A stretch of 64,000 bases of DNA from a virus. Positions 27,031 through 48,126 of this stretch are shown here, piece by piece; the stretch's first letter is position 1, and every line of letters starts with the position of its first letter. Location: IMG/VR virus record IMGVR_UViG_3300045988_167063, one strand, 5' to 3'. The position numbers and the translations under genes are program-made. Below the pieces are notes generated by a model, which saw only the letters and a list, made by a program, of their open reading frames with translations, was not told where the DNA came from and made no database searches.

Positions 27031-27174
27031 TTCGTTCCACACGATTTCGTTATTCTCCTTTCGTGTTATAGATTACTTTTATGCTTTGATATTGAAATTT
27101 GTAAGCACAAAAGTAAATTTTCAATCTTTTCTTAATTATACCATATTTCATTGTAAAAGTCAAGTGTTTTTTTA

Positions 27175-27199: not shown

Positions 27200-27207
27200 T
27201 TTATTTT

Positions 27208-27304
27208 TTATATATTTATATATACTTTATAATATAATATAATACTTATATATATATATATATATATATTATATTTATATTAAATAATAATAATTAATAT
27301 AATA
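27208..27304. repeat. pure A/T, (TA)n-rich low-complexity tract
   Basis: About 100 nt with almost no G or C, including tatatatatatatatatatat. Confidence 0.9.
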
Positions 27305-27388
27305 ATATAGACAAGGAATGATACCAAATCCTGAAAAATAATGCAAATTTCCATTATTTTAATATGTTTTGTCAACGATAAAAGGTAC
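27305..27388 (+). repeat. ~84-nt repeat element, copy A (ATATAGACAAGG...TCAACGATA..GGTAC)
   Basis: Aligns by eye with the reverse complement of 36994-37074 and partly with 37117-37182. Confidence 0.7.
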
Positions 27389-27471
27389 TTATTTTAAAGA
27401 GGCACTATAAAAATCAATAATGAAATAATATATAATTTACATCTTTTTAAAGAAATCTTTGGGAAATTATC

Positions 27472-27570
27472 GGCTTTTCGTAAGAAAAGCTTTAATCGAA
27501 AAAGTTAAGACACGATAGTGGCTTAATTTTTTTGTCAAAAGTTAAGGAGCGTAGCGACTTAACTTGCGAC
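27472..27570 (+). promoter_or_regulatory. array of three hairpins in the divergent control region
   Basis: GCTTTTC-gtaa-GAAAAGC; GTTAAG-N11-CTTAAT+T7; AAGTTAAG-N11-CTTAACTT. Confidence 0.5.
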
Positions 27571-27593
27571 AGCCTTGTGAAATCTTATGAGGA

Positions 27594-27790: not shown

Positions 27791-27819
27791 TTGACATTTA
27801 GATAAAACTATGGTATAAT
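27791..27819 (+). promoter_or_regulatory. sigma-A-type promoter, first early promoter
   Basis: TTGACA-17 nt-TGgTATAAT. Confidence 0.8.
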
Positions 27820-29516: not shown

Positions 29517-29536
29517 TCAAAGGAGTTGAATGAAAA

Positions 29537-29851: not shown

Positions 29852-30050
29852 GTTTAGGGTTATGACTCTTGATGAATATTGTACTTATAGAAAAACGGGG
29901 TGTAATGGCTGTGAGTATCGCCAAAGTTTAACTTATTATGATTATTACTGTGATTATTCAAACTTTAATAAAGTAAATCGAGAGCGTGACAAAAGTAAGC
30001 CTTACAAAACAAAAGACGGCAAATACATATTGATTGAGGTAAAAGAATAA
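29832..30050 (+). CDS. hypothetical 72-aa protein
   Basis: ORF track. Confidence 0.6.
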   Translation: MSKKKRKFRVMTLDEYCTYRKTGCNGCEYRQSLTYYDYYCDYSNFNKVNRERDKSKPYKTKDGKYILIEVKE

Positions 30051-30316: not shown

Positions 30317-30801
30317 GAGAGATTTTATTTAGAGCAACGGATTTGTCAGGTGTTAACAATCGCTCTTGGGTTTTTGGCAGTTTAGATACAACTGAAAATG
30401 AATATACAATAATGATTTACCCCGACAGATTTGGTAACAAGTGTAGAATTTTTGTTGACCCTAAAACAGTAGGGCAATACACAGGACTGATTGATAAAAA
30501 CGGCAAAAAGATATTTGAGGGTGATATTGTTCAGTATTTAACTTATGATGAATTTGATTGTCAATCTGTCGTTAAATTTGGCAAATACAAACAAGACGGT
30601 AGTGAAGGTGAATATAAAGCGAGTGACTGTTTAGGATTTTATGTTGAAGTAGATAATTTTACTTGCCCCGATTGGTGTGATAACGAACCTGAAAAATTTC
30701 ACGATTACTTGGAACAGCAAAGTTTAGCAGAGATAGCGAGTCGATGCGAAGTTATTGGCAATATACACGATAACCCCGAATTGTTGGAGGTAAAAGAATG
30801 A
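30313..30801 (+). CDS. YopX-family protein, paralog 1
   Basis: MREILFRA.., GQYTGLIDKNGKKIFEGDIV, and the terminal IGNIHDNPELLE signature of the YopX family. Start is at an ATGA overlap. Confidence 0.75.
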   Translation: MREILFRATDLSGVNNRSWVFGSLDTTENEYTIMIYPDRFGNKCRIFVDPKTVGQYTGLIDKNGKKIFEGDIVQYLTYDEFDCQSVVKFGKYKQDGSEGEYKASDCLGFYVEVDNFTCPDWCDNEPEKFHDYLEQQSLAEIASRCEVIGNIHDNPELLEVKE

Positions 30802-31001
30802 ATAATTTTGAAGATATTAAAAATAAAAACATTCAAGAAATGGCTGAATGGATAGAGGAAATATTTTCAAGTAACCCCTGTTATTGTTGTGTAAAAAAAG
30901 ATATTGATAAATGTCATTATTATGAAAAAAATTATTATGATAGAATAGAACTTTGTGTCGAAAATAGAAAATTGTGGCTTGAAAGTGAGGTAGAGGAATA
31001 A
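30798..31001 (+). CDS. small Cys-rich protein, paralog of 59719..59898
   Basis: M.NFE.IKN...EMA....C..C......W.ESEVEE is shared by both copies. Confidence 0.6.
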   Translation: MNNFEDIKNKNIQEMAEWIEEIFSSNPCYCCVKKDIDKCHYYEKNYYDRIELCVENRKLWLESEVEE

Positions 31002-31264
31002 TGGCAGGAATTATAGCAAAGCAACCTAATGGCTTATATTGTAGAATTTCAACCATAATTGACGCACCTACACATTCCAATATGACAAAACAAGATTATA
31101 TTGATATGTGTGTTGAAAAAGCAAAAGAAGAAGCTGAAAGTGTACTTGAAAATTATTGTTATGATTTTGATAGAGCATTAACATATATCAATTATGGGGA
31201 TAATACAAATATGACAAATGAAGAATATGAACAATTTATTAAATATTGTAATACAAAACCTTAA
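31001..31264 (+). CDS. hypothetical 87-aa protein
   Basis: ORF track. Confidence 0.6.
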   Translation: MAGIIAKQPNGLYCRISTIIDAPTHSNMTKQDYIDMCVEKAKEEAESVLENYCYDFDRALTYINYGDNTNMTNEEYEQFIKYCNTKP

Positions 31265-31278
31265 GGGAGTGATTAAAT

Positions 31279-31617
31279 TTGGATAGAAGAATTATCGCCG
31301 TTGATTTTGACGGCACATTATGTGAAAGCAATTATCCTTATTGTGGCAAACCTATTATGCCTGTTATCAGAGCTATTACCGAAGAAAAGAAAAAAGGGTC
31401 AATTATTATTCTTTACACTATGAGAGAAGGCAAGGAACTTGATTTGGCTTTAAAATGGTGTAAATGTTATGGCATTGAATTTGATGCCGTAAATGAAAAT
31501 TGTCAATGGGCAAAAGAATACTTCAATAACCCACGAAAAATATTTTATACTGAATTATGGGATGATAGGGCATTTAATGTTGACGATATTATTAGACTAT
31601 ATAATCAATTTTGTTAA
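31279..31617 (+). CDS. small HAD-like phosphatase/nucleotidase (putative)
   Basis: IAVDFDGTL is HAD motif I (DxDGT). TTG start. Confidence 0.45.
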   Translation: MDRRIIAVDFDGTLCESNYPYCGKPIMPVIRAITEEKKKGSIIILYTMREGKELDLALKWCKCYGIEFDAVNENCQWAKEYFNNPRKIFYTELWDDRAFNVDDIIRLYNQFC

Positions 31618-31772
31618 TGAATATGAATTATGAATATAGAATTTATGAAGTTAGTTCACAATACAGGCAAGGAAAAGTATTAAAAGATTATAAAAATTAC
31701 AATAATGCTATTGCTCATATGAAAAAATCAATTTTTAAATTTATAAAAGAAATAAAAATAATAAAGGAATAA
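31617..31772 (+). CDS. small hypothetical protein (51 aa)
   Basis: Hand-translated; TAATG overlap with the upstream gene. Confidence 0.4.
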   Translation: MNMNYEYRIYEVSSQYRQGKVLKDYKNYNNAIAHMKKSIFKFIKEIKIIKE

Positions 31773-31777
31773 AATAA

Positions 31778-31942
31778 ATGTTATTTAAAATAATAATTTC
31801 AGTTATGATTTGGTGTTTTGTGTTGAATTTGCCTCTTATATATGAACCAGCAGATATAACACCTAAACAATTTCGTATTTTTTGTTGGTATGAATTTATT
31901 GTTTTAATTGTTGGAACAATTATTATATTTAATTTAAAATAA
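31778..31942 (+). CDS. small two-TM membrane protein (54 aa)
   Basis: Hand-translated MLFKIIISVMIWCFVLNL...EFIVLIVGTIIIFNLK. Confidence 0.4.
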   Translation: MLFKIIISVMIWCFVLNLPLIYEPADITPKQFRIFCWYEFIVLIVGTIIIFNLK

Positions 31943-31945
31943 CTC

Positions 31946-31974
31946 TTGACAAATTGATATTTTTATGGTATAAT
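31946..31974 (+). promoter_or_regulatory. sigma-A-type promoter
   Basis: TTGACA-17-TGgTATAAT. Confidence 0.8.
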
Positions 31975-32311
31975 AAGGGAGAAATCTCGAAAAGGTGTAT
32001 TATTAAGCAAATAAAAATCTCGATTTGGTGATAATACGCATAATTAGATTTACTAAAATAACCAATAAAACGCAAAATAATGTTTAAAAATATGAACGGA
32101 ATTAAGAATTATGTTTGTATTTTTAAACATAAAAAGATTGGACTAAAGATGATTGGGATAGAGAAGTAGCAAAATTTAAGGCACAAGGATGTGAATTATT
32201 TTGATTGTAGAAAAGCAAATATTATTTAAAAATGGAAACAAAATCAATTTAATTGAACCTAAAGAAAGTTATCGTGGAAAAAATCATTTTAAAACAAGAA
32301 AGGAAAAATCA

Positions 32312-33337
32312 ATGATATATTTTGACAACGCAGCGACAACACCACTTTCGGAAAATGTCAAAAATGATATAAAAAATAACCTTGATAATTTTGGCAATCC
32401 GAGTTCTATATACTCAATCGGTTTTAAATCAAAAGAAATTATTGAAAATGCAAGAAAAAAAGTTGCCGAATGTATAAATTGCAAGCCGACAGAAGTTTTT
32501 TTTACAAGTGGTGCTTCTGAAAGTAATACTTGGGCATTGCAAGACTTATTTTGGTGTAACCCATTTGAACACCATAGTATTTTAAATAACCCAAACAAAG
32601 TTTATAAAACAAGAGATGCTTATATTATTACTTGTATGCTTGTAAACAATGAATTAGGAATTGATTTTACTGATTATCTTGCAGAATTAAGACAAAATTC
32701 CTCAAAACAAATTCATTGTGATGCTACTCAAGCAATCGGCACACTTGATGTTGATGTTCAAAAATTAGGTGTTGATACAATGTCATTTAGTGGGCATAAA
32801 TTTCACGCTCCTAAAGGAACAGGAGTATTATATATAAAAGAGGGAATTGAATTGCCTCGAACAATTTATGGTGGAAAGCAAGAAAGTGGCTTGAGAGGTG
32901 GCACAGAGAATATTTTAGGCATTTCTGCTCTTGGTGTTGCTATTCAAGACGCTTATAATAACCTTGAAAAGAAAAATCAACATTGTGAACATCTTAAAAA
33001 TGTTTTTCTTAATAAATTAAAGCATTATTGGAGTTTAGATTATGAAATAAATGCTACTAAATATGATACTGTGCCAAATATTATAAGTTTTTCGCTAAAA
33101 GATATTGAAAGTGAGCCTATTTTGACTCAACTTGACCTTGAAAATATTTATGTTTCAAGTGGTTCAGCTTGTAATACAGGCACTCTTGAACCGAGCGAAA
33201 CGCTAAAATGGTATGGTATTCCTGAAGATTACATAAATGGAACAATTAGGGTTTCATTCGATTTAGAAAATACTGAAGAAGAAATTGATATTTTCTTACA
33301 TAAATTAGCAGAAATTGTAAAGAGGGTAAAAAATTGA
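32312..33337 (+). CDS. cysteine desulfurase (NifS/IscS-like class V aminotransferase)
   Basis: IYFDNAATTPL, SFSGHKFHAPKGTGVLY (PLP lysine) and SSGSACN (active-site Cys). ATG 32312 after AAAGGA is preferred over the track start at 32201. Confidence 0.8.
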   Translation: MIYFDNAATTPLSENVKNDIKNNLDNFGNPSSIYSIGFKSKEIIENARKKVAECINCKPTEVFFTSGASESNTWALQDLFWCNPFEHHSILNNPNKVYKTRDAYIITCMLVNNELGIDFTDYLAELRQNSSKQIHCDATQAIGTLDVDVQKLGVDTMSFSGHKFHAPKGTGVLYIKEGIELPRTIYGGKQESGLRGGTENILGISALGVAIQDAYNNLEKKNQHCEHLKNVFLNKLKHYWSLDYEINATKYDTVPNIISFSLKDIESEPILTQLDLENIYVSSGSACNTGTLEPSETLKWYGIPEDYINGTIRVSFDLENTEEEIDIFLHKLAEIVKRVKN

Positions 33338-33612
33338 AGTTTGTAAGACCGAGTTTATTAAAATTTGAATTTACATACAAAGATATATATGATGAACTAC
33401 ATAAAAGAGTTTTTGAGTCAAAAGATTATGAAAATTCGACAAATAGTTTGCTAAATATTCATAAAGACATTGATGACTTTATTGATACATTAAAAAGTTA
33501 TAGTCCTAAAGATGTAATTATGAATTTTAATGGTGAATATACTGTGGGGTTAGAGGATATTGAAATTGATTTAGGAATTATTTTTAATGCTATTTCGCCA
33601 AAAAATTCATAA
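33334..33612 (+). CDS. hypothetical 92-aa protein
   Basis: ORF track; 4-nt overlap with the desulfurase gene. Confidence 0.6.
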   Translation: MKFVRPSLLKFEFTYKDIYDELHKRVFESKDYENSTNSLLNIHKDIDDFIDTLKSYSPKDVIMNFNGEYTVGLEDIEIDLGIIFNAISPKNS

Positions 33613-33718
33613 AAGGAGTCAAGATAATGCTTTATTTTATGGTACTAATTACAATAGTCATAATATTTATTATTTCTGCTTATTCTAACCCACGAATAAA
33701 CCATTAAAGGAGTTAAAT

Positions 33719-33982
33719 ATGATTAAATATGATAATATTGAATATTTTGATGAGCCGATATATAAAAATTTGACCGAAATTCAACAAGGTGATGTAATTT
33801 ATACTGAATTTGGTGATTATGGCAATTATATTCAAGCAATTTTTGATGATTTTGAAAAGACAAAACCTAATATATCAAAGATTTCTTTTCATTATCCAGA
33901 CGGAAGATTTGATGAAATGTATGGATTTTTAAATATCGACACGACAGAATATAAAATTATAGGAAAGGAAATACAAAAATGA
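33719..33982 (+). CDS. hypothetical 87-aa protein
   Basis: ORF track; AAGGAG upstream. Confidence 0.6.
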   Translation: MIKYDNIEYFDEPIYKNLTEIQQGDVIYTEFGDYGNYIQAIFDDFEKTKPNISKISFHYPDGRFDEMYGFLNIDTTEYKIIGKEIQK

Positions 33983-34185
33983 CAGAAAAAGTCTATGAAA
34001 ATACTGATTATACAACAATAAATCAATATCTTGAAGTAACAATTGGTACAATTTGTGATAAAATTGAGGACACTATTATTCAAATGACCTGCACCGACCA
34101 TAAGAGGCAACGAGAAAAATTAAAGGATATTTGCCAATGCTATATTGATGACATTTATACAATTATAGGAATGAAAGAACAATAA
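33979..34185 (+). CDS. hypothetical 68-aa protein
   Basis: ORF track; ATGA-coupled. Confidence 0.55.
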   Translation: MTEKVYENTDYTTINQYLEVTIGTICDKIEDTIIQMTCTDHKRQREKLKDICQCYIDDIYTIIGMKEQ

Positions 34186-34388
34186 TGAAATTATATTTTA
34201 GAGACTCAAACAGTAAAGAACTTAAATTTGTAAGAGAGGTAGACTCTCAACAAGAAGTTTTTTACGAAATTAGAAAATATGCCAAAGAAAATAACATTGA
34301 TGTCTACTACATAAGAACTTTTGGCACTGATAAAGTGACAACTTATGATTTTGGTAGTCATTTAGACTTTTTTGAGTTACATAAATGA
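34185..34388 (+). CDS. hypothetical 67-aa protein
   Basis: ORF track; TAATG-coupled. Confidence 0.55.
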   Translation: MKLYFRDSNSKELKFVREVDSQQEVFYEIRKYAKENNIDVYYIRTFGTDKVTTYDFGSHLDFFELHK

Positions 34389-34467
34389 AAATGATAAATT
34401 TTATAAAATCAATAATTAAATTCATAAAAGACCCTATGTGGTTATTTTAAAACAAAGAGGTGATTAA

Positions 34468-34989
34468 ATGGAAACAGTTAAATTTGCAAAAGTTAAAGAA
34501 AACGCAATTATTCCTACAAAAACCAATGAAAATATGGGATATGATATTTATGCTTGTTTTGACGAGGACTATATTGAAATTCGCCCACACGAAACAAAGC
34601 TAATTCCGACAGGTATTGCAAGTTGTTGTAGTGATGAATATGGATTTATTATTAAAGAGCGTGGTTCAACAGGTTCTCAAGGCATTGCTGTTCGCTGTGG
34701 TGTCATTGATAGCGGTTTTAGAGGGGAATGGTTTATTGCTCTTACAAATACTACAGCAGAAACAATGAGAATTACTAAAAAGGTCAATAAAGTGCAACAA
34801 GGTGTTGCATATAGTGGTAAAGAGGAAAAATATTATCTTGGAACTAATAAAAATGTAGACTTCGTTCAAAATGACCCATTTGTTTATGGTGAAACTTTAA
34901 AACTTTATCCATATAATAAAGCTATCGCCCAAGCTATTCTTGTGCCTGTGCCAAAGGTTAAGGTTGAAGAAGTCACCTATATGAATTAA
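34468..34989 (+). CDS. dut: dUTPase (trimeric type). C-terminal motif V is out of frame (see findings)
   Basis: GYDIYA, ERGSTGSQG and GVIDSGFRGEW motifs. The frame stops before motif V, which is encoded in the -1 frame at 34968-35042. Confidence 0.8.
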   Translation: METVKFAKVKENAIIPTKTNENMGYDIYACFDEDYIEIRPHETKLIPTGIASCCSDEYGFIIKERGSTGSQGIAVRCGVIDSGFRGEWFIALTNTTAETMRITKKVNKVQQGVAYSGKEEKYYLGTNKNVDFVQNDPFVYGETLKLYPYNKAIAQAILVPVPKVKVEEVTYMN

Positions 34990-35041
34990 AATCAATTAAA
35001 TCAGACAGAATGAACGGTCAATTAGGGAGTAGTGGAAAATA

Positions 35042-35230
35042 ATGAAAATTTCAACTAAAATGTTAATTGCTACAATCATATCGGCAATATTATCTATTAC
35101 TTTTTGTACAATTAGAGCATTAGTACCTGTTCTCGAAAATGGTTTTGTGCCATTAGCGATAATGAGTTTAGCAGTCTTTTTTGTATCTTTTTTTGCTTGG
35201 ATATTTGAAACTTGTTATCCTCTTAATTAA
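35042..35230 (+). CDS. small two-TM membrane protein
   Basis: ORF track. Confidence 0.6.
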   Translation: MKISTKMLIATIISAILSITFCTIRALVPVLENGFVPLAIMSLAVFFVSFFAWIFETCYPLN

Positions 35231-35235
35231 AATAG

Positions 35236-35715
35236 ATGGCAACAATGAAAAATAAATATAAAATAAATAAACTCAAAAGAGATTTATCCTATTGCAAACA
35301 CGGAAGTTTAAAATATAGGCTTAAATATTTCTTTAAAGCCTTTAAAAATGCCTTTCATCGCTTTATTTACGGCTATGATGACCGAGATTGGTATGATTAC
35401 TATTATAGCTTTATAGAACGCAATATGGCTTTATTTCAAGAACTTGTTAATAATGTTGAGTTGACAAAAACAAACGAAAAATATTGTTGTGGTTGTTTGC
35501 CCATAATTATTAACGGTAAAAGAATAGGTGATATGACTGTCGAGCAAACACAGGAATTTTATACCGAACTTATCAAACTATTAAAAGACATTGATAAATT
35601 TGAAAATTCAGACTTTGGTGATAAAAATTATATTGAAAAATATAAAAAAGCAAAAGAAAGCCTTAACGCTTATTTTGACATTATGAAAGAATATTTTTGG
35701 GAGTTATGGGATTGA
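35236..35715 (+). CDS. hypothetical 159-aa protein
   Basis: ORF track. Confidence 0.65.
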   Translation: MATMKNKYKINKLKRDLSYCKHGSLKYRLKYFFKAFKNAFHRFIYGYDDRDWYDYYYSFIERNMALFQELVNNVELTKTNEKYCCGCLPIIINGKRIGDMTVEQTQEFYTELIKLLKDIDKFENSDFGDKNYIEKYKKAKESLNAYFDIMKEYFWELWD

Positions 35716-35933
35716 TGATAGATGATGAAACGCTATTAAATATAGCAATTACTGAAACTTATAAAAGATTTGCTATGCGAGGAAGTTCTAAAAGTCTTGT
35801 AACTCCAACATTATATGCATTAAAATTATATAGTTGGTTAAAGACGGAAAATCAACTAAACAAATATAATTTTAATTTACCCAAAGAACGAATAGCAATG
35901 AATTTAAGGAGGAATAGTTTTGATAGATTATAA
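35715..35933 (+). CDS. hypothetical 72-aa protein
   Basis: ATG at a TGATG overlap, after GGGAG, is preferred to the track start at 35697. Confidence 0.55.
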   Translation: MIDDETLLNIAITETYKRFAMRGSSKSLVTPTLYALKLYSWLKTENQLNKYNFNLPKERIAMNLRRNSFDRL

Positions 35934-36321
35934 AAGATATGTTATTTTATTAGGCTTTGACAATACAATAAAAAGTTCTAAGGAGGTCTTTCCTTTTCTT
36001 ATGAGTGGCACTGACCTTAATAATGCCCTTCGTCACTTTTTAGACCTTGAATGTGGTATTCCTTTCCACAAAACAGATAATCTTACCACATATGAACTTA
36101 TTTCTAAAATTCCACAAATGGTATTGAGTATTTATGAATTAAAACTCGACAATATGATTTATTTTGGAGATAATAAAGAAGAGCTTACAAATAAAGATGA
36201 GACTAAATCTATAAAAGATGTTAAACCCACACCTGTTTTAAAACAATATAAACACGGGAAGATTGTGGTTTCATCATTAGAATTAAAAGATGAGAACGGA
36301 AATACTATATTGAATTTATGA
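35920..36321 (+). CDS. hypothetical 133-aa protein
   Basis: AGGAGG, 7 nt, then TTG. Confidence 0.65.
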   Translation: MIDYKRYVILLGFDNTIKSSKEVFPFLMSGTDLNNALRHFLDLECGIPFHKTDNLTTYELISKIPQMVLSIYELKLDNMIYFGDNKEELTNKDETKSIKDVKPTPVLKQYKHGKIVVSSLELKDENGNTILNL

Positions 36322-36502
36322 AAATAATAATCAAACCTAAAGCAAAGGTGAAAGACAAAAGACTTATTTGCCCCTTTTGTGGAGAAGATAAGCCTTTTAT
36401 CCGCTACATAAAGAAAGGCATATTAAATCGTGTATAGGTTTTATTGACACAAATGAAAGTGTTTATAAGTGCAATACCTGTGGAACACAATGGACTAATT
36501 AA
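36318..36502 (+). pseudogene. small zinc-ribbon protein interrupted by a -1 frameshift
   Basis: CPFCG lies in frame A, which stops at TAG 36435-36437. The partner CNTCG lies in the -1 frame ending at 36502. The frames overlap around ATAAAGAAAGG. Confidence 0.45.
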
Positions 36503-36514
36503 AAAGGTGAACTT

Positions 36515-36898
36515 ATGAAAATTTATTTAAGATATAAACTATTACTTATTAAAGAATGGTTTGAAAATACTATAAAGAAAAAATATCTTGATAGTAGAAA
36601 ATATAAATTATTTAAAAAGAAATATAAAAATGAATTAAATGCTTTGAGTAAGAATGTACTATCAATAGCCTCATCTTCTGACTCTAAACTCATTAAAATT
36701 CCTTGTTATACTTTTCTTAATAACTGCAATCTTATTACTCACTCTAATATTTGTGTTTCTGACCAAGACTTTCAAGACTTTATCGAAATGATTTTATCTA
36801 AACATTTTAAACATATATTATTATGTAAATGCTTTATTTGTCACGATGGAGATATTTATGATAACAAAAATTTAACACTCGTAATGAGATTGAAATAA
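36515..36898 (+). CDS. hypothetical 127-aa protein
   Basis: ORF track; followed by a strong terminator. Confidence 0.65.
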   Translation: MKIYLRYKLLLIKEWFENTIKKKYLDSRKYKLFKKKYKNELNALSKNVLSIASSSDSKLIKIPCYTFLNNCNLITHSNICVSDQDFQDFIEMILSKHFKHILLCKCFICHDGDIYDNKNLTLVMRLK

Positions 36899-36900
36899 TT

Positions 36901-36931
36901 ATAAGTGCCTTTGTTGGCACTTATTTTTTTA
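36901..36931 (+). terminator. rho-independent terminator
   Basis: ATAAGTGCC-tttgtt-GGCACTTAT followed by T7. Confidence 0.85.
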
Positions 36932-36993
36932 TTTTATAGATAGTTCAACTTTGAACAGCACTCAATTACATATAATTTCCACCTTTGACCTCC

Positions 36994-37074
36994 GTACCTA
37001 TCGTTGAAAAAACATACTCAAATAACATAAATTCAACGCTACTTTCAGTTTTTGATACCAAACCTTGTCTATAT
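36994..37074 (-). repeat. ~84-nt repeat element, copy B (inverted relative to copy A); left arm of the large palindrome
   Basis: Its reverse complement reads ATATAGACAAGG..TTTTTTCAACGATAGGTAC, matching 27305-27388. Confidence 0.7.
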
Positions 37075-37116
37075 TATATATATTATATAATTTAATCCTG
37101 CCACCAGTATGACACG

Positions 37117-37182
37117 CTTTGGTATCAAATCCGAAAACTAAAGCTAAATTTTCATTATCTGAAACAAATTTTCAACGATAGC
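37117..37182 (+). repeat. repeat element, copy C; right arm of the large palindrome
   Basis: TTTGGTATCAAA (37118-37129) and TTTTCAACGATA (37169-37180) mirror 37051-37062 and 36999-37010, around a centre near 37090. Confidence 0.7.
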
Positions 37183-37311
37183 AAGTCCTTAATATAAGGG
37201 GTAATTACTTTTTAGGAGTGGCTAAATATAGTAAAAAATCGGAAAAATGAAAGAAAATGTTGAAAATAATGGAAATTGGGAATAGAGTTGCGAGTGTTGA
37301 ATAGCCGAGCG

Positions 37312-37328
37312 TGTGAATAAAAATCACA
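37312..37328. promoter_or_regulatory. TGTGA-N7-TCACA inverted-repeat operator candidate (site 1 of 4)
   Basis: tgtgaataaaaatcaca. Confidence 0.5.
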
Positions 37329-37639
37329 AGGGGTTGTGAATTTGAGAAACACCCCCGTTAATAGACACTTTTATTATTTTTGTCTATTATCTTTTAAACT
37401 TTCAGCGATTCAAGCGGTAAGCGGTTAAAATCATTTAAAATCTTGTAAAAAAATGATATATAAATAATATTATACAATGTTTTTATAAGCGGTTGAAAAA
37501 ATCAAGCATTTATTAAATTGTATACTTTTTTTTGAAGATTTTTTTGTGTATTTTTAGTATACAGTGCTTTCAGGTAATCGCGTAAAGTCCAAAAAGTGTA
37601 CTATACAATCAACCTATACGAATGCTTATCATTATAGCC

Positions 37640-38070
37640 TTAATCTATATCAATATTATATCATTACTTATATATACTATATATCAATATATATATATAT
37701 ACTCTTATATATTATAGTATCTTTTAGTATAATATAACATACTCTTATTATATACCATCATATCAATATCACATATACAATTTTAAAAATCAATAGTACA
37801 ATTTTATACACTATATATCATATTATATATAACTATATCTTTATTGATATAGTACAATTATATACACTATAATATATATAATAATCTTAATATATAATAC
37901 TTCAGTATATAGTATATTGTAATATATTATATAAGATATAATAATATATCAATATCAATTTAAAATATTAAATATTAAAATAAAATTTAATTATTAAAAA
38001 TATTGCCTATAAACCTATATAAAGCCGTTTTAATATAAAATAATGATATTATATTATTAAATATTAAAAA
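37640..38070. repeat. ~430-nt TA-rich low-complexity tract with embedded 22-nt direct repeats
   Basis: Very few G or C. TAGTACAATT(T/A)TATACACTATA occurs at 37794-37815 and 37850-37871. Confidence 0.85.
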
Positions 38071-38132
38071 GTGTTTATATAAGCGTCAGAGAGCCTGACT
38101 TTAATGATTTAGCGTATTAAAGTGGGCAGGCA

Positions 38133-38164
38133 ATAAAAAAAAGCCTTGCATTATACAAGGCTTT
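38133..38164 (-). terminator. rho-independent terminator (hairpin is symmetric and could act in both directions)
   Basis: AAAGCCTTG-N7-CAAGGCTTT with A8 on the plus strand (T8 on the minus strand). Confidence 0.8.
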
Positions 38165-38171
38165 AAAAATT

Positions 38172-38399
38172 TTAATTTATTGAATTAAAAAGCTTCGAAG
38201 CTTCTATATCGTCAACAGCGTATAACTCACTTTTATAATTCCCGTCATTAAGTATAAAATAACGAGTCTTAATAGGTGCGCCGCATATCTTCGCCCAATC
38301 TTCCCGCTCTGCTGCTGTTGGTAATACTTCATCTCTAAATAAAGCCATAAAGCCTCGGCGGTCTATCTCGTACGCTTTATAGTTATTATTATAATACAT
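38172..38399 (-). CDS. hypothetical 75-aa protein in a counter-oriented, GC-richer islet
   Basis: ORF track. A hand count of 38261-38320 gives about 53% G+C. Confidence 0.65.
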   Translation of the reverse strand: MYYNNNYKAYEIDRRGFMALFRDEVLPTAAEREDWAKICGAPIKTRYFILNDGNYKSELYAVDDIEASKLFNSIN

Positions 38400-38413
38400 T
38401 TTATACCCTCTTT

Positions 38414-38818
38414 CTATTCTTCTGCTGATTGTATTTTATCTAATCTTGATTCTAATTCAAGACGGTTATCTTCTATATATTCGGCAATGCAAGACGGCAA
38501 TACATAGCATCTAATTATAACATCAAGCCATTCTGTGCCCTTGTCTAATACATCAATATTATTATATCCAAATTCCTGAAGTGCTTCACTTGCTAAACTC
38601 AAGTTATTTATTAGTGCTTCTTCTGCTTTATAAGAATTGCAATAATAAGAGCCCGAAGCGTTCCCTGTTACTGCGTCTTCGTTCCATAACTCATCATTTA
38701 AAACTTCTTCATATTCTTCCAAATCATTAGGACGAACCGCTTCAATGTTTAAATAATATGCTTCATCATTTATAACATCTTCTATTGATTGTTTTACTTC
38801 TTCATAGTAATTATACAT
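38414..38818 (-). CDS. highly acidic 134-aa protein (possible DNA mimic / anti-restriction candidate)
   Basis: ORF track. Many D/E residues. GGAGGT lies upstream of the ATG. Confidence 0.65.
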   Translation of the reverse strand: MYNYYEEVKQSIEDVINDEAYYLNIEAVRPNDLEEYEEVLNDELWNEDAVTGNASGSYYCNSYKAEEALINNLSLASEALQEFGYNNIDVLDKGTEWLDVIIRCYVLPSCIAEYIEDNRLELESRLDKIQSAEE

Positions 38819-38892
38819 AATAAATACCTCCGTTTAACGCCCGTCGGCTTATTCTTTTTAACTCTTGGCGTTACGCCCTTCGTTCTGTCTAT

Positions 38893-38921
38893 ACTATAAC
38901 ACGCATCCGCCGATTTGTCAA
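38893..38921 (-). promoter_or_regulatory. sigma-A-type promoter for the counter-oriented islet
   Basis: The minus strand reads TTGACA-17-TATAGT, followed by a GC-rich leader of about 85 nt. Confidence 0.7.
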
Positions 38922-39341
38922 CATATTTCTTGAAGTTTATGCAACTTGTATACTTCAAGCCGATTTATAGCCGGCTTTTTGTGCATATTGCATAAATTCA
39001 GAGCTTTTGGTATGTTTTATAGTACAATTTAATTAAAAGTGTATTATAACTAACTTCGTGTGCTTTAGTCAAGTAAAGTTTGCCACTTTTGAGGGTGTAG
39101 GAATATAGATATATTACTAACACTAAAAACGGCTTATATCGGCTTTCAGAGCCTTATAATACACTTTGATATAAAATGCACATTATTTTAGCGTTCATAT
39201 TATTACACTTTGTATATATCAATTTTACTATATGTAATATAACTAATTGTATAGTTTATGTTTACATATTGTATAATAGACTTTTGTTTATTATTATATC
39301 ATTGTCTATTTATGAATAAATTGTAAAATTTAAAATAATTG

Positions 39342-39370
39342 TTGACTTTTAAACGGCTTTATGTTATTAT
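39342..39370 (+). promoter_or_regulatory. sigma-A-type promoter driving an ORF-free ~330-nt transcript
   Basis: TTGACT-17-TGtTATTAT. Confidence 0.6.
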
Positions 39371-39599
39371 ACAAAGTGAATTATAACGACTTTTAGTGCT
39401 TTATAATTGTAACAATTTTGTAATAACCTATTAAAATTATAGGTATTGTAATTTTATGCAGGGTATCACGCTTTACCGTGATAAAGTGTTAAAGTCCTAT
39501 TAAATTAGTAGGATATTATATATTATTTAATTGATAAAAATATATCAATCTTATTTAAAATTTTATCAATCTTAAATGTGAATAATTATATAATTTTTA

Positions 39600-39616
39600 T
39601 GTGAATTTTAGTCACA
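39600..39616. promoter_or_regulatory. TGTGA-N7-TCACA operator candidate (site 2)
   Basis: tgtgaattttagtcaca. Confidence 0.5.
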
Positions 39617-39711
39617 AAGTCAAAGTGTAGTGAACGCTTGTGAGGGTAATGGTGAGATTGAAATTTGCCCCGAGGAAATTATGAACAGTTTGTAAACAAA
39701 TCAAAAAAGTC

Positions 39712-39740
39712 TTGACGAGTGCAAACAAGTATGTTATATT
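39712..39740 (+). promoter_or_regulatory. sigma-A-type promoter
   Basis: TTGACG-17-TGtTATATT. Confidence 0.7.
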
Positions 39741-39796
39741 GTAATCAAGCTAAACGGCAAAAGCCGAAAATAAATGTAGTATAGGGAGGTTTAATT

Positions 39797-40018
39797 ATGA
39801 CATTAGATAATCAAATTAAAAATTATAATTATAGGGTTAATGTGCTTTTCAAAAACCATCTAACAGGTTGGGAAAAAAGATATACAGTAGAATTTCCTGA
39901 ATTTTGGCTGGCAATGAAGTATGTTGAAGCATTACAAGATAACGAAGATATTGTAAAAATTTTTCTATTAGAACGCATATCAGACGGTAGTTTTGATATT
40001 ACAAGGAAGTTTAAATAA
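39797..40018 (+). CDS. hypothetical 73-aa protein
   Basis: GGGAGG SD then ATG. Confidence 0.65.
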   Translation: MTLDNQIKNYNYRVNVLFKNHLTGWEKRYTVEFPEFWLAMKYVEALQDNEDIVKIFLLERISDGSFDITRKFK

Positions 40019-40040
40019 ATTCAATTTTTTCAAAAAAGTA

Positions 40041-40069
40041 TTGACAAGTTCATAAATTTGTGCTATATT
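40041..40069 (+). promoter_or_regulatory. sigma-A-type promoter
   Basis: TTGACA-17-TGcTATATT. Confidence 0.75.
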
Positions 40070-40121
40070 AAAATCAACAAATAAAACTGTGCTAACGGTT
40101 ATACGGGCAGGAGATATTATT

Positions 40122-40325
40122 ATGTGTTATCTAATTGAGGTCACGGAGATAGAGGAAGTAACGCCAAAACAACAAGGCTACACGCACAGCAAGGATTTTT
40201 GCATTGCAACGCTTGAGGAGGCAATGTGCGGAGCGTATGATAAAGTCGATATATTAAACGCTGTAACAGGCGAAGTGTTAGCAGCCTTCTATGATGAGGA
40301 ATTAGCCTATAACATTTTATATTGA
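40122..40325 (+). CDS. hypothetical 67-aa protein
   Basis: AGGAGA, 7 nt, then ATG at 40122. The track start at 40089 has no SD. Confidence 0.6.
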   Translation: MCYLIEVTEIEEVTPKQQGYTHSKDFCIATLEEAMCGAYDKVDILNAVTGEVLAAFYDEELAYNILY

Positions 40326-40420
40326 TTTTAAAAAAACAATTTTCGTTTTCAGATTTGAAAATCAAAATCAAAATTCAGATTTGAAAACGAAAATTGAAAA
40401 TTGAAAATGAGGTTTGAAAA

Positions 40421-40741
40421 ATGAAAACTAACAAAAATATAAACATTTATACATTTACGAAGATTTTTGAAAATGAAATTGAAAAAATCAATAAATTTAA
40501 AAATCCGCATACAATGGCAGGATTTGACGAAGCCGTTGATTTTTTTATTCACGATTTTTTACCGTTGCAATATGATTTTTGCAAAGAATTTTTTAATTGT
40601 TATTACAAAGATAATTTTGAGTTATCACAAGAAGTTGAATATGACGGCAAAAAAACAATTTATTATTCTATAACCGAGGTTGAAATGGTGGCTTTTGCCT
40701 TCACAATTACATATTTTGAAGATTTTAATGCTTATTATTAA
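40421..40741 (+). CDS. hypothetical 106-aa protein
   Basis: ORF track. Confidence 0.6.
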   Translation: MKTNKNINIYTFTKIFENEIEKINKFKNPHTMAGFDEAVDFFIHDFLPLQYDFCKEFFNCYYKDNFELSQEVEYDGKKTIYYSITEVEMVAFAFTITYFEDFNAYY

Positions 40742-40759: not shown

Positions 40760-40788
40760 TTGACAATTCAGCAAATGTATGCTATTAT
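40760..40788 (+). promoter_or_regulatory. sigma-A-type promoter
   Basis: AAAAAACACTTGACA-17-TGcTATTAT. Confidence 0.75.
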
Positions 40789-40820
40789 ATAGACAATGAA
40801 TAACAAAGGAGTTAATTATT

Positions 40821-47241: not shown

Positions 47242-48126
47242 ATGACAAACACAGAGTTAATAAAGATATTTGAACAGACAATAAGGCAAAAACCATTCTC
47301 TTTAAGTGAGAATACAATTAAGACTTATTTATATCATATTGATAGTCTTTTAAAATTCCTCGACAATAAAAACATTGCCGAGATTATAACAAAAGACATT
47401 AAAAAATATTTGTTTAATATCAGTTCTGTGGGTGTTTCAGATACAACCTATAATATTTCATTGGCAGGGTTTAAATGCTTGTATAAAGCTTTGAGATACA
47501 ATCCTATGACAGAAGATATTATTCAAAATAATCCAGCTATTGATATTCCAAGTATCAAAAACGCAAAACAAAAGAAAAAGACACCTTTAAATGAAATTGA
47601 AAAACAGGCATTATTGCATAGTTGTAAAAATGTAAGAGATTATGCTATTCTTGTAACTTATTTGAATGTTGGCTTGCGTGTTCACGAACTTGTTAATTTA
47701 ACACTTGAACAATATCTTAATCGTGGCGAAAATGGCGAAATTAAACTTGTTGTTAATAAAGGCTCTTATGATGATGAATATATTTTTATCAACGAACAGA
47801 CCGAAAAGGCAATAGATAATTATATTAAGAATTTAAGAAAAGATTGTGGCTGTAAATATCTTTTTGTATCAAATCAAGGCAACCAAATGACACCAAGTTG
47901 TATTTCTAAAACTATTAAGACTTTGGCAAGAAGAAGTGGTAAGTTTTCAGAAGATAGAATTTCACAATTATCAAATCATATTATGCGACACACTATGGCA
48001 ACTGATTTAGTTAATGAAAATGTGCCGATTGATGTTGTTGCAATGGTATTAAGACATCATAGTCTTGCAACAGTTATGACTTATGCAAAGACGGATAAAG
48101 AAAGAGTTATGGAGGCAGTAAGATGA
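47242..48126 (+). CDS. tyrosine recombinase (XerC/D / phage integrase family)
   Basis: N-terminal SAM-like core-binding region, GLRVHELVNL (Arg I), HIMRHTMATDL (H-x-x-R) and LRHHSLATVMTYAKT (catalytic Tyr). Confidence 0.8.
   Translation: MTNTELIKIFEQTIRQKPFSLSENTIKTYLYHIDSLLKFLDNKNIAEIITKDIKKYLFNISSVGVSDTTYNISLAGFKCLYKALRYNPMTEDIIQNNPAIDIPSIKNAKQKKKTPLNEIEKQALLHSCKNVRDYAILVTYLNVGLRVHELVNLTLEQYLNRGENGEIKLVVNKGSYDDEYIFINEQTEKAIDNYIKNLRKDCGCKYLFVSNQGNQMTPSCISKTIKTLARRSGKFSEDRISQLSNHIMRHTMATDLVNENVPIDVVAMVLRHHSLATVMTYAKTDKERVMEAVR

What the first reader, a model, noticed from the sequence alone, without database searches (positions are those of the whole stretch)
36994..37182. ~180-bp palindrome built from an ~84-nt element that also occurs at the late/early divergent junction
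TATCGTTGAAAA (36999-37010) mirrors TTTTCAACGATA (37169-37180). TTTGATACCAAA (37051-37062) mirrors TTTGGTATCAAA (37118-37129). Both pairs are symmetric about position ~37090.

The left arm, reverse-complemented (ATATAGACAAGG..TATGTTTTTTCAACGATAGGTAC), matches 27305-27388 (ATATAGACAAGG..TATGTTTTGTCAACGATAAAAGGTAC). All copies abut pure A/T tracts. Together the copies bracket the ~10-kb first early segment (27.3-37.2 kb).

Candidate functions are a replication origin or cruciform, a packaging or injection-stop signal, a recombination or inversion site (a tyrosine recombinase is encoded at 47242), or module-boundary scars.
Basis: seen in the sequence. Interest (0 to 1): 0.65.

Follow-up and report, generated by a model that had tools for sequence, protein, structure and literature searches.

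The report
Back-to-back promoter cassettes, not a palindrome
The "palindrome" is two diverged copies of an ~80-bp promoter-and-operator cassette placed back to back, with a third copy 10 kb away; all three are strongly conserved, most likely start short non-coding transcripts in an uncultured SPbeta-like gut phage, and do not appear to be selected to form a hairpin.

Summary
Three copies of an ~80-nt element exist: A 27305-27388 (+), B 36995-37073 (-), C 37108-37185 (+). They are 71-74% identical, with z = 12-17 against shuffles. B and C form an imperfect inverted repeat around an A/T centre.

B-C identity is the lowest of the three pairs, so arm pairing is not under selection. No consensus RNA structure emerges from 7 homologous copies, and no Rfam family matches.

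Each copy begins with a -10-like hexamer followed directly by ATAGACA. Two canonical sigma-A promoters of this phage have the same geometry. A palindromic box follows (TTTGGTACCAAA; core TACCAAAT kept across lineages), then an unstructured A/T-rich leader, then hairpins or terminators, with no ORF.

The region is as conserved among 9 strain variants as coding DNA (pi 0.00-0.02, against 0.07-0.26 for neighbouring non-coding DNA). A sister lineage keeps the same three-copy layout, and its copies have co-evolved.

Best reading, at confidence 0.5: co-regulated promoter/operator cassettes driving short non-coding RNAs, comparable to SPBRE elements of SPbeta. A replication origin, promoters for the phage's YonO-like RNA polymerase, and Xer-type recombination sites remain possible. 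Interest is moderate.

The parts
27207..27309 (.). A/T-only tract with (TA)n runs upstream of copy A. Several metagenome contigs break here.
   Evidence: TRF; contig ends
27298..27388 (+). Copy A. TATAAT 27298-27303 (AATAAT 27301-27306 at the homologous position); ATAGACA 27307-27313; box AATGATACCAAA 27318-27329; TCAACGATA 27372-27380; GGTAC end.
27470..27585 (+). Hairpin cluster downstream of A. One hairpin carries a U7 terminator-like tail (27506-27537). Another displays GAGCGTAGCGA (27547-27557) followed by GCGACAGCC. The block is nearly identical to L035 (one difference over ~170 nt), and the motif is shared by other lineages.
27791..27819 (+). Canonical sigma-A promoter of the early operon (TTGACA-17-TATAAT, TG-extended, 12/12).
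27135..27163 (-). Canonical leftward promoter (TTGACT-17-TATAAT, 11/12) for the minus-strand cluster, which starts with a 58-aa gene and the YonO-like RNA polymerase gene.
36901..36924 (.). Bidirectional intrinsic terminator. It ends the early operon and would also end a transcript started at copy B. Relatives show a compensatory stem change.
36995..37078 (-). Copy B (left arm). TATAAT 37078-37073; ATAGACA 37072-37066; box 37062-37051; TCAACGATA 37007-36999. Invariant in 12 sequence variants except for one box position.
37070..37110 (.). A/T-rich centre holding the -10-like hexamers for both directions, plus the extra bases specific to C (TTAATCCTGCCACCAGT).
37086..37185 (+). Copy C (right arm). 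TATAAT 37086-37091; ATGACA 37109-37114; box 37118-37129; TCAACGATA 37172-37180.
37186..37398 (+). Conserved non-coding stretch downstream of C (37186-37310, pi 0.016), followed by two hairpins, the second with a T-rich tail. No conserved ORF.
38886..38921 (-). Reference sigma-A promoter with the same start geometry: TTGACA-17-TATAGT, then ATAGACA.
40760..40795 (+). Second reference sigma-A promoter with the same geometry: TTGACA-17-TATTAT, then ATAGACA.
47242..48126 (+). Xer-like tyrosine recombinase retaining R, HxxR, H and Y. It is a candidate trans factor only by analogy.

Best explanation
The ~190-bp 'palindrome' is two diverged copies (B leftward, C rightward) of one promoter-proximal cassette set back to back. 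A third copy (A) sits in the divergent junction 10 kb upstream.

Each cassette has four parts:
1. An A/T-rich upstream tract.
2. A -10-like hexamer followed immediately by the start motif ATAGACA (ATGACA in C).
3. A 12-18-bp palindromic, operator-like box centred about 15 bp downstream. It reads TTTGGTACCAAA, and its core TACCAAAT is kept across lineages.
4. About 55 nt of A/T-rich leader with no conserved secondary structure.

Inferred mechanism: RNA polymerase starts at ATAGACA and makes short non-coding transcripts. Their lengths would be about 165 nt from B, about 230 nt from A and about 300 nt from C, each ending at the nearby hairpins or terminators. A sequence-specific dimeric factor binding the box, just downstream of the start, would co-regulate all three. 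In the back-to-back pair, the two boxes lie 66 bp apart and flank both -10 elements, so one bound complex could shut both promoters.

What is shown: the homology, the sequence anatomy, the conservation, the lack of RNA structure, and the lack of selection for arm pairing. What is inferred: transcription, its end points, and the binding factor.
For: 1. **Start geometry.** A -10 hexamer followed directly by ATAGACA occurs in B (TATAAT+ATAGACA) and at two canonical promoters with perfect TTGACA -35 boxes at 17 bp: the minus-strand promoter at 38921-38886 and the plus-strand promoter at 40760-40795. Copy A has AATAAT at that position and TATAAT 3 nt upstream.

2. **Cross-lineage conservation of the start.** TATAAT-ATAGACA-N8-GTACCAAAT is kept at the same junction in lineages whose flanking proteins are only 67-83% identical (L052, L055, L233, L230). 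The upstream A/T tract and the downstream sequence differ completely.

3. **Variant contig L036.** It places a perfect TTGACA-17-TATAAT directly upstream of copy B.

4. **Downstream context.** Every copy is followed within 60-300 nt by hairpins or terminators, and no conserved ORF follows.

5. **No shared RNA structure.** RNAalifold finds 9 weak pairs or fewer on 3 copies and 0 pairs on 7 copies. No Rfam family matches.

6. **No selection for arm pairing.** Identities are A-B 73.8%, A-C 71.9%, B-C 70.8%. Strain variants in C are not compensated in B.

7. **Purifying selection.** Diversity is pi 0.006 in B, 0 in the centre, 0.022 in C and 0.016 downstream of C. Coding DNA shows 0.02-0.03 and other non-coding DNA 0.07-0.26.

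8. **Sister lineage L235/L236.** It has the same layout: one junction copy and a back-to-back pair after the early-operon terminator. Its three copies share lineage-specific blocks, which indicates concerted evolution, as expected for co-evolution with a trans-acting factor, although gene conversion between the copies would give the same pattern.

9. **Behaviour of the box.** It is a perfect palindrome, TGGTACCA, in most strains. It is tandemly duplicated in L051. In the window's sub-lineage, all three copies carry a transition at the inner G:C pair of GGTACC, removing every KpnI-type site from a genome that strongly avoids 6-bp palindromes.
Against: - There are no transcript data.
- In the window, B and C lack a recognisable -35 box, and A has only 4/6. 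-10-like hexamers are common in A/T tracts: the promoter scan found 18 sites against 14 expected.
- C has lost the hexamer+ATAGACA geometry. Its TATAAT lies 17 nt upstream of ATGACA.
- L036 has 1.9x coverage and could be chimeric.
- B points into the 3' end of a convergent operon, and C points toward convergent genes, so any product would be non-coding with unknown use.
- The ~55 nt beyond the box, including the invariant TCAACGATA, are not explained by a simple promoter-plus-operator model.
- No cognate DNA-binding protein was identified.
Confidence: 0.5

Rival explanations
1. The copies are replication origins, or parts of them. Transcription from the cassettes, divergent in the B/C pair, would open the adjoining A/T tracts or supply a primer. 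The model is the transcription-dependent origin of lactococcal phage c2, which lies between the early and late clusters and is flanked by two early promoters.
For: - Copy A sits in a ~800-bp non-coding junction between divergent gene clusters. The order is an upstream promoter-like start, a non-coding hairpin region, and then the main early promoter. This is the layout described for c2-type origins (PMC7150918).
- All copies abut A/T-only tracts.
- B and C lie in a 1.2-kb non-coding island between convergent terminators. The island also holds three 35-nt direct repeats spaced 56-60 bp apart.
- The junction's non-coding sequence differs between lineages, as the c2, bIL67 and 923 origin types do.
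Against: - B and C copy only the first ~80 bp of the junction locus, not its conserved hairpin core.
- There is no cluster of DnaA boxes.
- The replication genes (DnaB-like helicase at 54217) are 17 kb away.
- A natural variant, L047, deletes 37716-40708, including the iteron-like repeats.
- Nothing here demonstrates origin activity.
Confidence: 0.17
2. The cassettes are promoters for the phage's own YonO-like single-chain RNA polymerase rather than for host sigma-A polymerase. That enzyme's promoter sequence is unknown even in SPbeta.
For: - The 609-aa and 309-aa ORFs beside copy A (24917-26746 and 23073-24002, split by an HNH/intron insertion) are homologous to proteins annotated as 'RNA-dependent RNA polymerase' in Enterocloster and Thomasclavelia phages. 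Relatives also carry YonG/YonJ domains.
- The cassettes lack -35 boxes but have a long specific sequence spanning the start. The three copies co-evolve within a lineage.
- In SPbeta, the one mapped YonO start site precedes an unannotated non-coding RNA, and the promoter is undefined (PMC5467207).
Against: - The same ATAGACA start follows -10 hexamers of promoters with perfect sigma-A -35 boxes.
- A and C point away from the structural genes. B is 10 kb from them and antisense to the early operon.
- The position matching the SPbeta YonO start, between the HU-like and YonJ-like genes (21622-21807), shows no similar motif.
- No catalytic motif was confirmed in the split ORF.
Confidence: 0.1
3. 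The boxes, or the 13-bp outer inverted repeats, are sites for the phage's Xer-like tyrosine recombinase. Possible outcomes are an invertible promoter switch (the 158-bp segment between 36998-37010 and 37169-37181), inversion or excision of the 10-kb early segment, or dimer resolution.
For: - The 47242 protein is Xer-like and retains R, HxxR, H and Y.
- The outer inverted repeats are 13/13 complementary. The boxes are 12-18-bp palindromes, as recombinase core sites usually are.
- Relative to the early operon, the cassette pair lies in the opposite orientation in sister lineage L235: window 37051-37172 aligns to L235 18021-17903 on the opposite strand, E 1e-8.
Against: - All 14 contigs of the window's lineage and both contigs of the L235 lineage show a single orientation each. 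No A-B inversion or A-C deletion junction was seen in about 20 contigs.
- The flanks in L235 are also rearranged: the 134-aa gene is on the other strand. The orientation difference may therefore be one old rearrangement.
- The recombinase gene is 10 kb away.
- A palindromic core gives no directionality.
- Arm homology extends far beyond any core site.
Confidence: 0.07
4. Copy A marks the packaging start (the pac site, or genome opening point), and the pair is a related terminase-binding or injection-stop signal.
For: - In SPbeta, the genome opening point lies in the yonP-yonR intergenic region next to yonO (bioRxiv 10.1101/2021.11.22.469490). By gene order, this corresponds to the window's junction.
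- Contigs L050, L053, L054 and L236 end in the A/T tract beside A.
- A deposited Enterocloster phage record is opened in the equivalent junction.
Against: - Contig breaks are expected at (TA)n low-complexity DNA.
- Other contigs of 105 kb read straight through.
- The B/C pair has no counterpart in SPbeta packaging.
- The terminase-like genes are 7-9 kb from A.
- The Enterocloster junction has no homologous element.
Confidence: 0.05
5. The inverted repeat works by folding. It would act either as a DNA cruciform or as a long RNA hairpin in read-through transcripts of the early operon, for example as an RNase III processing or retroregulation site.
For: - As a single strand, 36990-37190 folds into one long imperfect hairpin: DNA -24.9 kcal/mol (z -5.2) and RNA -40.5 kcal/mol (z -6.3).
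- The box substitutions in B (G to A at 37055) and C (C to T at 37125) fall on positions that would pair with each other.
Against: - B-C identity (70.8%) is the lowest of the three pairs.
- Three polymorphic sites in C have no compensating change in B.
- The centre is asymmetric.
- Copy A is single yet equally conserved.
- A strong terminator lies upstream.
- The paired box changes are equally explained by the same site-avoiding substitution occurring in each copy.
Confidence: 0.04

Closest known systems
SPBRE (SPbeta repeated element), bound by the master repressor MrpR/YopR of Bacillus phage SPbeta
   Same: SPBRE is a short conserved motif repeated in promoter regions at several intergenic sites of an SPbeta-type genome. 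It is bound by one phage regulator that co-controls those promoters (PMC10516654). The window's phage is SPbeta-like (YopX domains, HU-like and YonO-like genes; YonG/YonJ domains in relatives L235/L237) and encodes a tyrosine-recombinase-fold protein.
   Different: SPBRE is a 15-bp motif found at about 10 promoters. Here there are three copies of an ~80-bp unit. The window's recombinase-like protein keeps its catalytic residues and gave no PDB hit to MrpR. No binding was tested.
Transcription-dependent origin of lactococcal phage c2 (PE1, non-coding PE1-T, PE2)
   Same: Both are non-coding regions between divergently transcribed clusters. In both, a first promoter yields a non-coding transcript upstream of the main early promoter, and the sequence is lineage-specific (PMC7150918). 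This matches the setting of copy A.
   Different: The c2 origin is a single locus. Here the promoter-proximal 80 bp is triplicated, and the back-to-back pair lies at an operon end. There is no sequence similarity, and no replication assay was done.
Divergent (back-to-back) promoter regions with flanking operators, such as the phage phi29 A2b/A2c-A3 control region or loop-forming operator pairs
   Same: Two oppositely oriented promoters share an A/T-rich core and are flanked by repeated binding sites for one regulator. Comparison from general knowledge, not tested here.
   Different: Here the two sides are paralogous over ~80 bp, which gives a pseudo-palindrome. The regulator is unknown, and both products appear non-coding.
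Invertible promoters (invertons) such as fimS or Bacteroides phase-variable promoters
   Same: Short perfect inverted repeats flank a promoter-bearing segment of ~160 bp, a tyrosine recombinase is encoded in the genome, and the opposite orientation is seen in a sister lineage.
   Different: No orientation polymorphism was seen within a lineage. Homology between the arms extends through the whole segment. A third, unpaired copy exists. The recombinase gene is not adjacent.

Membership tests
Sigma-A (sigma-70-type) promoter | -10 hexamer close to TATAAT | tested here: met
   TATAAT at 27298-27303 (A), 37078-37073 (B) and 37086-37091 (C). The hexamer is kept next to ATAGACA in other lineages.
Sigma-A (sigma-70-type) promoter | -35 hexamer close to TTGACA at 16-18 bp | tested here: inconclusive
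   A has TTTATA at 18 bp (4/6). B and C in the window have no recognisable -35. Variant L036 has a perfect TTGACA at 17 bp upstream of B.
Sigma-A (sigma-70-type) promoter | Mapped transcription start | not testable with these tools
   No RNA data are available. The start is inferred from the hexamer+ATAGACA geometry shared with two canonical promoters.
Operator for a dimeric DNA-binding regulator (SPBRE-like repeated element) | Short dyad-symmetric motif repeated at several promoters of one genome | tested here: met
   TTTGGTACCAAA (perfect in L035 and most strains) sits at the same offset in all three copies. The core TACCAAAT is kept in four other lineages. A related TGTACTAAATC lies upstream of another promoter in L235.
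Operator for a dimeric DNA-binding regulator (SPBRE-like repeated element) | Identified cognate binding protein | not testable with these tools
   No HTH or repressor family was found among the neighbouring ORFs. The Xer-like protein is only a candidate by analogy.
Structured non-coding RNA family | Conserved secondary structure with covariation | tested here: not met
   RNAalifold found 9 weak pairs with no compensatory change on 3 copies, and 0 pairs on 7 copies. A hairpin in A is broken by a substitution in L035 and is absent in C.
Structured non-coding RNA family | Match to a curated Rfam model | tested here: not met
   There were no hits at gathering thresholds. Only noise appeared at E up to 5, such as a plant miRNA hairpin model matching the inverted repeat.
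Cruciform-forming or protelomerase-type palindrome | Near-perfect dyad symmetry across the centre | tested here: not met
   Arm complementarity is 71%, the centre is asymmetric with 16-19 extra bases on one side, and B-C identity is lower than A-B and A-C.
Site-specific recombination or inversion sites | Alternative arrangements (isomers) among genomes or reads | tested here: inconclusive
   No isomer was found within a lineage in about 20 contigs. The cassette orientation does differ between two lineages. Read-level data are not available.
Replication origin (c2-type, transcription-dependent) | Non-coding region between divergent clusters, bounded by two early promoters | tested here: met
   This holds for copy A only. 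It does not hold for the B/C pair, which lies between convergent units.
Replication origin (c2-type, transcription-dependent) | Supports autonomous replication or maps as an initiation site | not testable with these tools
   This requires plasmid replication assays or marker-frequency analysis.
pac or cos packaging site | Defined DNA ends or a coverage step at the site, near the terminase genes | tested here: inconclusive
   Four contigs end in the A/T tract beside A, while other contigs of 105 kb read through. The terminase-like ORFs lie at 16981-18895.

The most novel reading that the evidence does not exclude
The three cassettes are the promoters recognised by the phage's YonO-like single-chain RNA polymerase. 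The long specific sequence spanning the start (TATAAT-ATAGACA-N8-TACCAAAT and beyond) would then be the first promoter consensus for this polymerase class. The back-to-back pair would be a bidirectional entry point from which the phage enzyme reads through host-type terminators in both directions.

A second unexcluded reading, of similar probability, is that the 158-bp segment between the perfect 13-bp inverted repeats is an invertible promoter flipped by the Xer-like recombinase.
Probability: 0.1. Interest if true: 0.7.

Novelty: new variant of a known kind. Interest (0 to 1): 0.4.

Why it matters
If the reading is right, this uncultured lineage of ~105-kb SPbeta-like human-gut phages carries a small regulon of three paralogous promoter/operator cassettes. 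They drive non-coding transcripts and are kept under selection as strong as that on coding DNA, across lineages.

That would give a concrete handle on early regulation in a phage group with no cultured member. It also yields a defined candidate operator (TTTGGTACCAAA), whose three copies each lost the GGTACC restriction site by a substitution at the inner G:C pair, in one half-site or the other. This is a clear case of a functional site evolving under restriction pressure.

The finding also warns that large 'palindromes' in phage genomes can simply be back-to-back paralogous promoters. If the cassettes prove to be promoters of the YonO-like polymerase, or origin-priming units, the value would be higher: YonO promoters are undefined, and transcription-primed phage origins are known from few systems.

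Tried and rejected
**Searches and tests on the element**
- **Rfam.** The whole window at gathering thresholds, and both loci at E up to 5, gave nothing relevant. A further scan of 17300-25000 for introns gave nothing at E up to 0.1.
- **Conserved RNA structure.** None was found on either strand.
- **Small ORFs.** Candidates inside or after the elements have no ribosome-binding sites, and their stops differ between copies and strains.
- **Cultured phages.** BLASTN of 36000-38500 found no match.
- **Element pattern in public collections.** It occurs only in this phage lineage: one IMG/VR contig and three gut-metagenome contigs. One chance hit appeared in Shewanella.
- **Two looser pattern scans of viral contigs.** They returned only chance matches and wasted scans.
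- **Similarity beyond the ~80-nt unit between A, B and C.** Not significant.
- **DnaA-box clustering.** None.
- **Motif at the position matching the SPbeta YonO start.** None.

**Comparisons with relatives and known proteins**
- **Distant relatives found through the 134-aa protein (L003-L034).** They lack the element and are organised differently.
- **The 47242 protein as an MrpR-like inactive recombinase.** Not supported, because the catalytic residues are present and the best PDB hits are XerA and XerD.
- **Flank collinearity between the window and L235 at nucleotide level.** Not significant in either orientation, so a clean inversion cannot be claimed.
- **Two c2-origin papers (PMC529073, PMC194990).** Not held in the library.
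Full report
**1. The observation**

Every sequence detail in the finding is present. CTATCGTTGAAAA (36998-37010) and TTTTCAACGATAG (37169-37181) are perfectly complementary. TTTGATACCAAA (37051-37062) mirrors TTTGGTATCAAA (37118-37129). Both pairs are centred on ~37090.

Without gaps, the arms are 52 nt at 71% complementarity. With gaps, they are ~80 nt each.

The reverse complement of the left arm matches 27305-27388. BLAST E-values are 3e-13 (A-B), 6e-9 (A-C) and 8e-7 (B-C). Smith-Waterman z-scores against dinucleotide shuffles are 17, 12 and 14. A profile built from the copies finds only these three in the window. The combined pattern gives 3 hits against 0 in shuffles.

I call the copies A (27305-27388, +), B (36995-37073, -) and C (37108-37185, +).

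**2. Context**

The window has 29% G+C and comes from an uncultured human-gut phage.
- Genes 1-27042 are on the minus strand. They include a portal (15325-16956), terminase-like ORFs, HU-like proteins and a split polymerase-like gene.
- The first plus-strand operon runs 27839-36898 and encodes YopX, a class-V aminotransferase and dUTPase.
- A small minus-strand unit lies at 38172-39123.
- A long plus-strand block follows from 39797, with Sak4, methyltransferases, a DnaB-like helicase and a Xer-like recombinase at 47242.

Several results point to an SPbeta-like Firmicutes phage:
- Distant portal relatives are Enterocloster, Thomasclavelia, lactococcal and SPbeta-like phages.
- Relatives carry YonG/YonJ domains.
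- The 609-aa ORF beside copy A matches proteins annotated as 'RNA-dependent RNA polymerase' in Enterocloster and Thomasclavelia phages, a label I take, from general knowledge, to mark YonO-type enzymes.

Full contigs of close relatives are ~105 kb. The window plus the closest IMG/VR contig cover about 82 kb and contain exactly three copies.

**3. The element is not a folding palindrome**

- If arm pairing mattered, B and C should resemble each other more than either resembles A. They do not: identities are A-B 73.8%, A-C 71.9% and B-C 70.8%.
- Among 12 sequence variants, three polymorphic sites in C have no compensating change in B.
- The centre is asymmetric.
- A single strand would of course fold into a long hairpin, as any inverted repeat does. 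That alone gives no evidence of selection for folding.
- RNAalifold finds no shared structure in three copies on either strand, and none in seven homologous copies from three lineages, where it predicts 0 pairs.
- Rfam has nothing.
- Small ORFs are not conserved.

**4. The element is constrained**

Across nine strain variants, nucleotide diversity is 0.006 in B, 0 in the centre, 0.022 in C and 0.016 in the 125 nt after C. The neighbouring genes show 0.02-0.03, and the other non-coding DNA around it shows 0.07-0.26. 'Module-boundary scar' therefore does not fit.

**5. What the 5' end of the element is**

In B, TATAAT is followed directly by ATAGACA. The same geometry occurs at two textbook sigma-A promoters of this phage:
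- TTGACA-17-TATAGT+ATAGACA at 38921-38886 (minus strand).
- TTGACA-17-TATTAT+ATAGACA at 40760-40795 (plus strand).

Copy A has AATAAT at the homologous position and TATAAT 3 nt upstream, with TTTATA 18 bp before that. Copy C has TATAAT 17 nt upstream of ATGACA.

Three further observations support a start site here.
- A low-coverage variant contig (L036) replaces arm C with unrelated sequence that supplies a perfect TTGACA-17-TATAAT reading into B.
- At the same junction in lineages whose flanking proteins are 67-83% identical, the A/T tract and the downstream sequence are unrelated to the window's, yet TATAAT-ATAGACA (ATAGCAA in one lineage) plus TGTAC(C/T)AAAT are kept.
- In the L052, L055 and L233 lineages, this start is followed by a G+C-rich ~250-nt sequence that folds far better than shuffles (-96.8 kcal/mol, z -5.0) and has no Rfam match.

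Each window copy is followed by hairpins or terminators:
- B: the bidirectional terminator at 36901-36924.
- A: a hairpin with a U7 tail at 27506-27537.
- C: two hairpins at 37330-37398.

I therefore read the first ~13 nt of the 'element' as the -10/start region of a promoter, and the rest as initially transcribed DNA.

**6. The box**

About 15 bp after the start lies TTTGGTACCAAA. In most strains all three copies carry a perfect TGGTACCA palindrome, extending to ~16-18 bp.

Three facts suggest a DNA-level protein site:
- The core TACCAAAT is the most conserved part across lineages (alignment).
- One strain (L051) has a 13-bp tandem duplication of the box.
- In sister lineage L235, a related TGTACTAAATC sits just upstream of the -35 box of another promoter.

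In the window's sub-lineage (window, L042, L046), B and C each carry one transition at the inner G:C pair of GGTACC. The window's A does the same (GATACC/GGTATC). As a result the window has no GGTACC at all, while in relatives GGTACC occurs only inside these boxes. The genome avoids other 6-bp palindromes strongly (GATATC 0 observed against 23 expected, GAATTC 0 against 21) and encodes several DNA methyltransferases. The box has probably been reshaped by restriction pressure within the limits its function allows.

**7. The three-copy architecture is conserved and co-evolves**

In L235/L236 the first early protein is 75% identical. That lineage has a junction copy (9524-9610) and a back-to-back pair (17885-17972 minus strand, 17994-18080 plus strand), placed right after the terminator of the first early operon. 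Its three copies share blocks such as GTAATATT after the box, where all three window copies have CTGAAA or CGAAAA. This concerted evolution is what recognition by a lineage-specific trans factor, or gene conversion, would produce.

C-type starts (CCAGTATGACA) are orthologous between the lineages. However, the pair lies in the opposite orientation relative to the early operon: window 37051-37172 aligns to L235 18021-17903 on the opposite strand, E 1e-8. The immediate flanks are not alignable, and the 134-aa gene is also on the other strand in L235. I therefore treat this as an old rearrangement, not as evidence of an active switch.

**8. Mechanism I commit to (confidence 0.5)**

The three units are paralogous promoter/operator cassettes that start short, terminator-bounded, non-coding transcripts. 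A box-binding factor co-regulates them. The 'palindrome' is a by-product of placing two cassettes back to back around a shared A/T core. In the pair, the two boxes lie 66 bp apart and bracket both -10 elements.

The closest described analogue in a related phage is the SPbeta repeated element (SPBRE). It is found at about ten promoter regions and is bound by MrpR, a repressor with a tyrosine-recombinase fold (PMC10516654). Membership is not claimed, for three reasons: the unit here is much longer, there are only three copies, and the window's recombinase-like protein keeps its catalytic residues and resembles XerA/XerD rather than MrpR.

Two things remain unexplained:
- What the ~55 nt after the box, including the invariant TCAACGATA, do.
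- What the transcripts are for, given that B and C point into convergent units.

**9. Rivals**

- **Replication origin of the transcription-dependent c2 type (0.17).** It fits the setting of copy A well (PMC7150918) and fits the A/T tracts. It does not explain why only the first 80 bp is triplicated. No DnaA-box cluster or other origin evidence was found.
- **Promoters for the YonO-like polymerase (0.10).** This is attractive because the cassettes lack a -35 box, have a long specific start sequence and co-evolve, and because the mapped YonO start in SPbeta precedes a non-coding RNA (PMC5467207). Against it, the same start motif follows sigma-A promoters, and the orientations do not suit late genes.
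- **Xer-type recombination or an inverton (0.07).** It is not excluded, but no isomers were seen.
- **Packaging site (0.05).** It rests on synteny with the SPbeta opening point and on contig breaks that (TA)n tracts explain just as well.
- **Folding palindrome (0.04).** See section 3.

**10. Verdict**

The feature is real, constrained and lineage-conserved. It is best filed as a new variant of a known kind: repeated promoter/operator elements of large temperate-type Firmicutes phages. Interest is moderate (0.4). It would be higher if the cassettes prove to be YonO-type promoters, origin-priming units or an invertible switch.

Noticed in passing
window 23073-26746 (minus strand); 24052-24120; 24219-24836: A ~920-aa polymerase-like gene (YonO-type; homologues annotated 'RNA-dependent RNA polymerase' in cultured relatives) appears split into 609-aa and 309-aa ORFs. 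The insertion carries an HNH/NUMOD4 homing endonuclease and a 68-bp stretch that is 87-89% identical to DNA lying between the two halves of split TerL genes in Streptococcus thermophilus and S. suis phages. This is probably a mobile group I-type intron. Relatives differ here in presence and arrangement. There was no Rfam hit.
   Followed up: partly
window 17557-17910: A ~355-bp stretch between the two terminase-like ORFs (16981-17559 and 17879-18895) is absent from close relatives L050 and L051. It may be a second intron-like insertion. It contains GAGCGTAGCAA, one mismatch from the junction motif.
   Followed up: no
L052:7090-7385 (minus strand); also L055 and L233/L235 ~9620-9850: In sister lineages, the junction copy's start is followed by a G+C-rich ~250-nt non-coding sequence in a 29% G+C genome. 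It folds at -96.8 kcal/mol (z -5.0) and has no Rfam match, so it is a candidate novel structured RNA. A (CG/TG)n alternating tract follows, just before the early promoter.
   Followed up: partly
window 27538-27575; L230 ~2820-2880; L229 1470-1550: A hairpin displaying GAGCGTAGCGA in its loop, followed by GCGACAGC, is shared at the junction by lineages with only 55-67% protein identity. L229 has three GCGTAGCG copies. This core of the junction locus is conserved and its function is unknown.
   Followed up: partly
whole window; boxes at 27318-27329, 37051-37062, 37118-37129: The window has no GGTACC site. In relatives, the only GGTACC sites in the ~150 kb of held, partly overlapping, DNA are inside the three boxes. 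The window also strongly avoids GATATC, GAATTC, CTATAG and CAATTG, and has at least four DNA methyltransferase genes (52948, 56761, 57590, 58212).
   Followed up: partly
window 37716-40708 (compared with L047): A natural variant lacks this 3-kb stretch: the A/T repeat region, the 75-aa and 134-aa genes and the 39.1-39.8 kb promoter region. It keeps the inverted repeat. The 134-aa protein is very acidic, possibly a DNA-mimic anti-restriction protein, and sits under a perfect sigma-A promoter.
   Followed up: no
window 37793-37943: Three direct repeats of ~35 nt (ATAGTACAATTnTATACACTATA...) are spaced 56-60 bp apart within a 700-bp A/T-rich non-coding stretch. They resemble iterons.
   Followed up: no
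window 38990-39250; L004 5393-5772; L019 5210-5535: Operator-like repeats sit around the divergent promoters beside the 134-aa gene. The window has AAAGTGTATTATAA/TTATAATACACTTT. Distant relatives have ATAAGTGCATTAT or TATGTGCGTTAT repeated around a TTGTCA box.
   Followed up: no
window 49187-49257 and 49956-50027: Rfam calls two tRNAs. ARAGORN calls only the second, as tRNA-Ser with the unusual anticodon ACT.
   Followed up: no
L051 ~1983-2011: One strain carries a 13-bp tandem duplication of the box in copy A (GAATGGTACCAAA twice).
   Followed up: no
L239/L238 (Enterocloster phage CB473P1, junction across the record ends): The equivalent junction of a cultured distant relative has no homologous element. 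It does have long (TA)n tracts, a G+C-rich hairpin and a 20-bp-arm perfect palindrome (TATAAATTTATATATCTATT ... AATAGATATATAAATTTATA). The linear record is opened inside the A/T tract.
   Followed up: no
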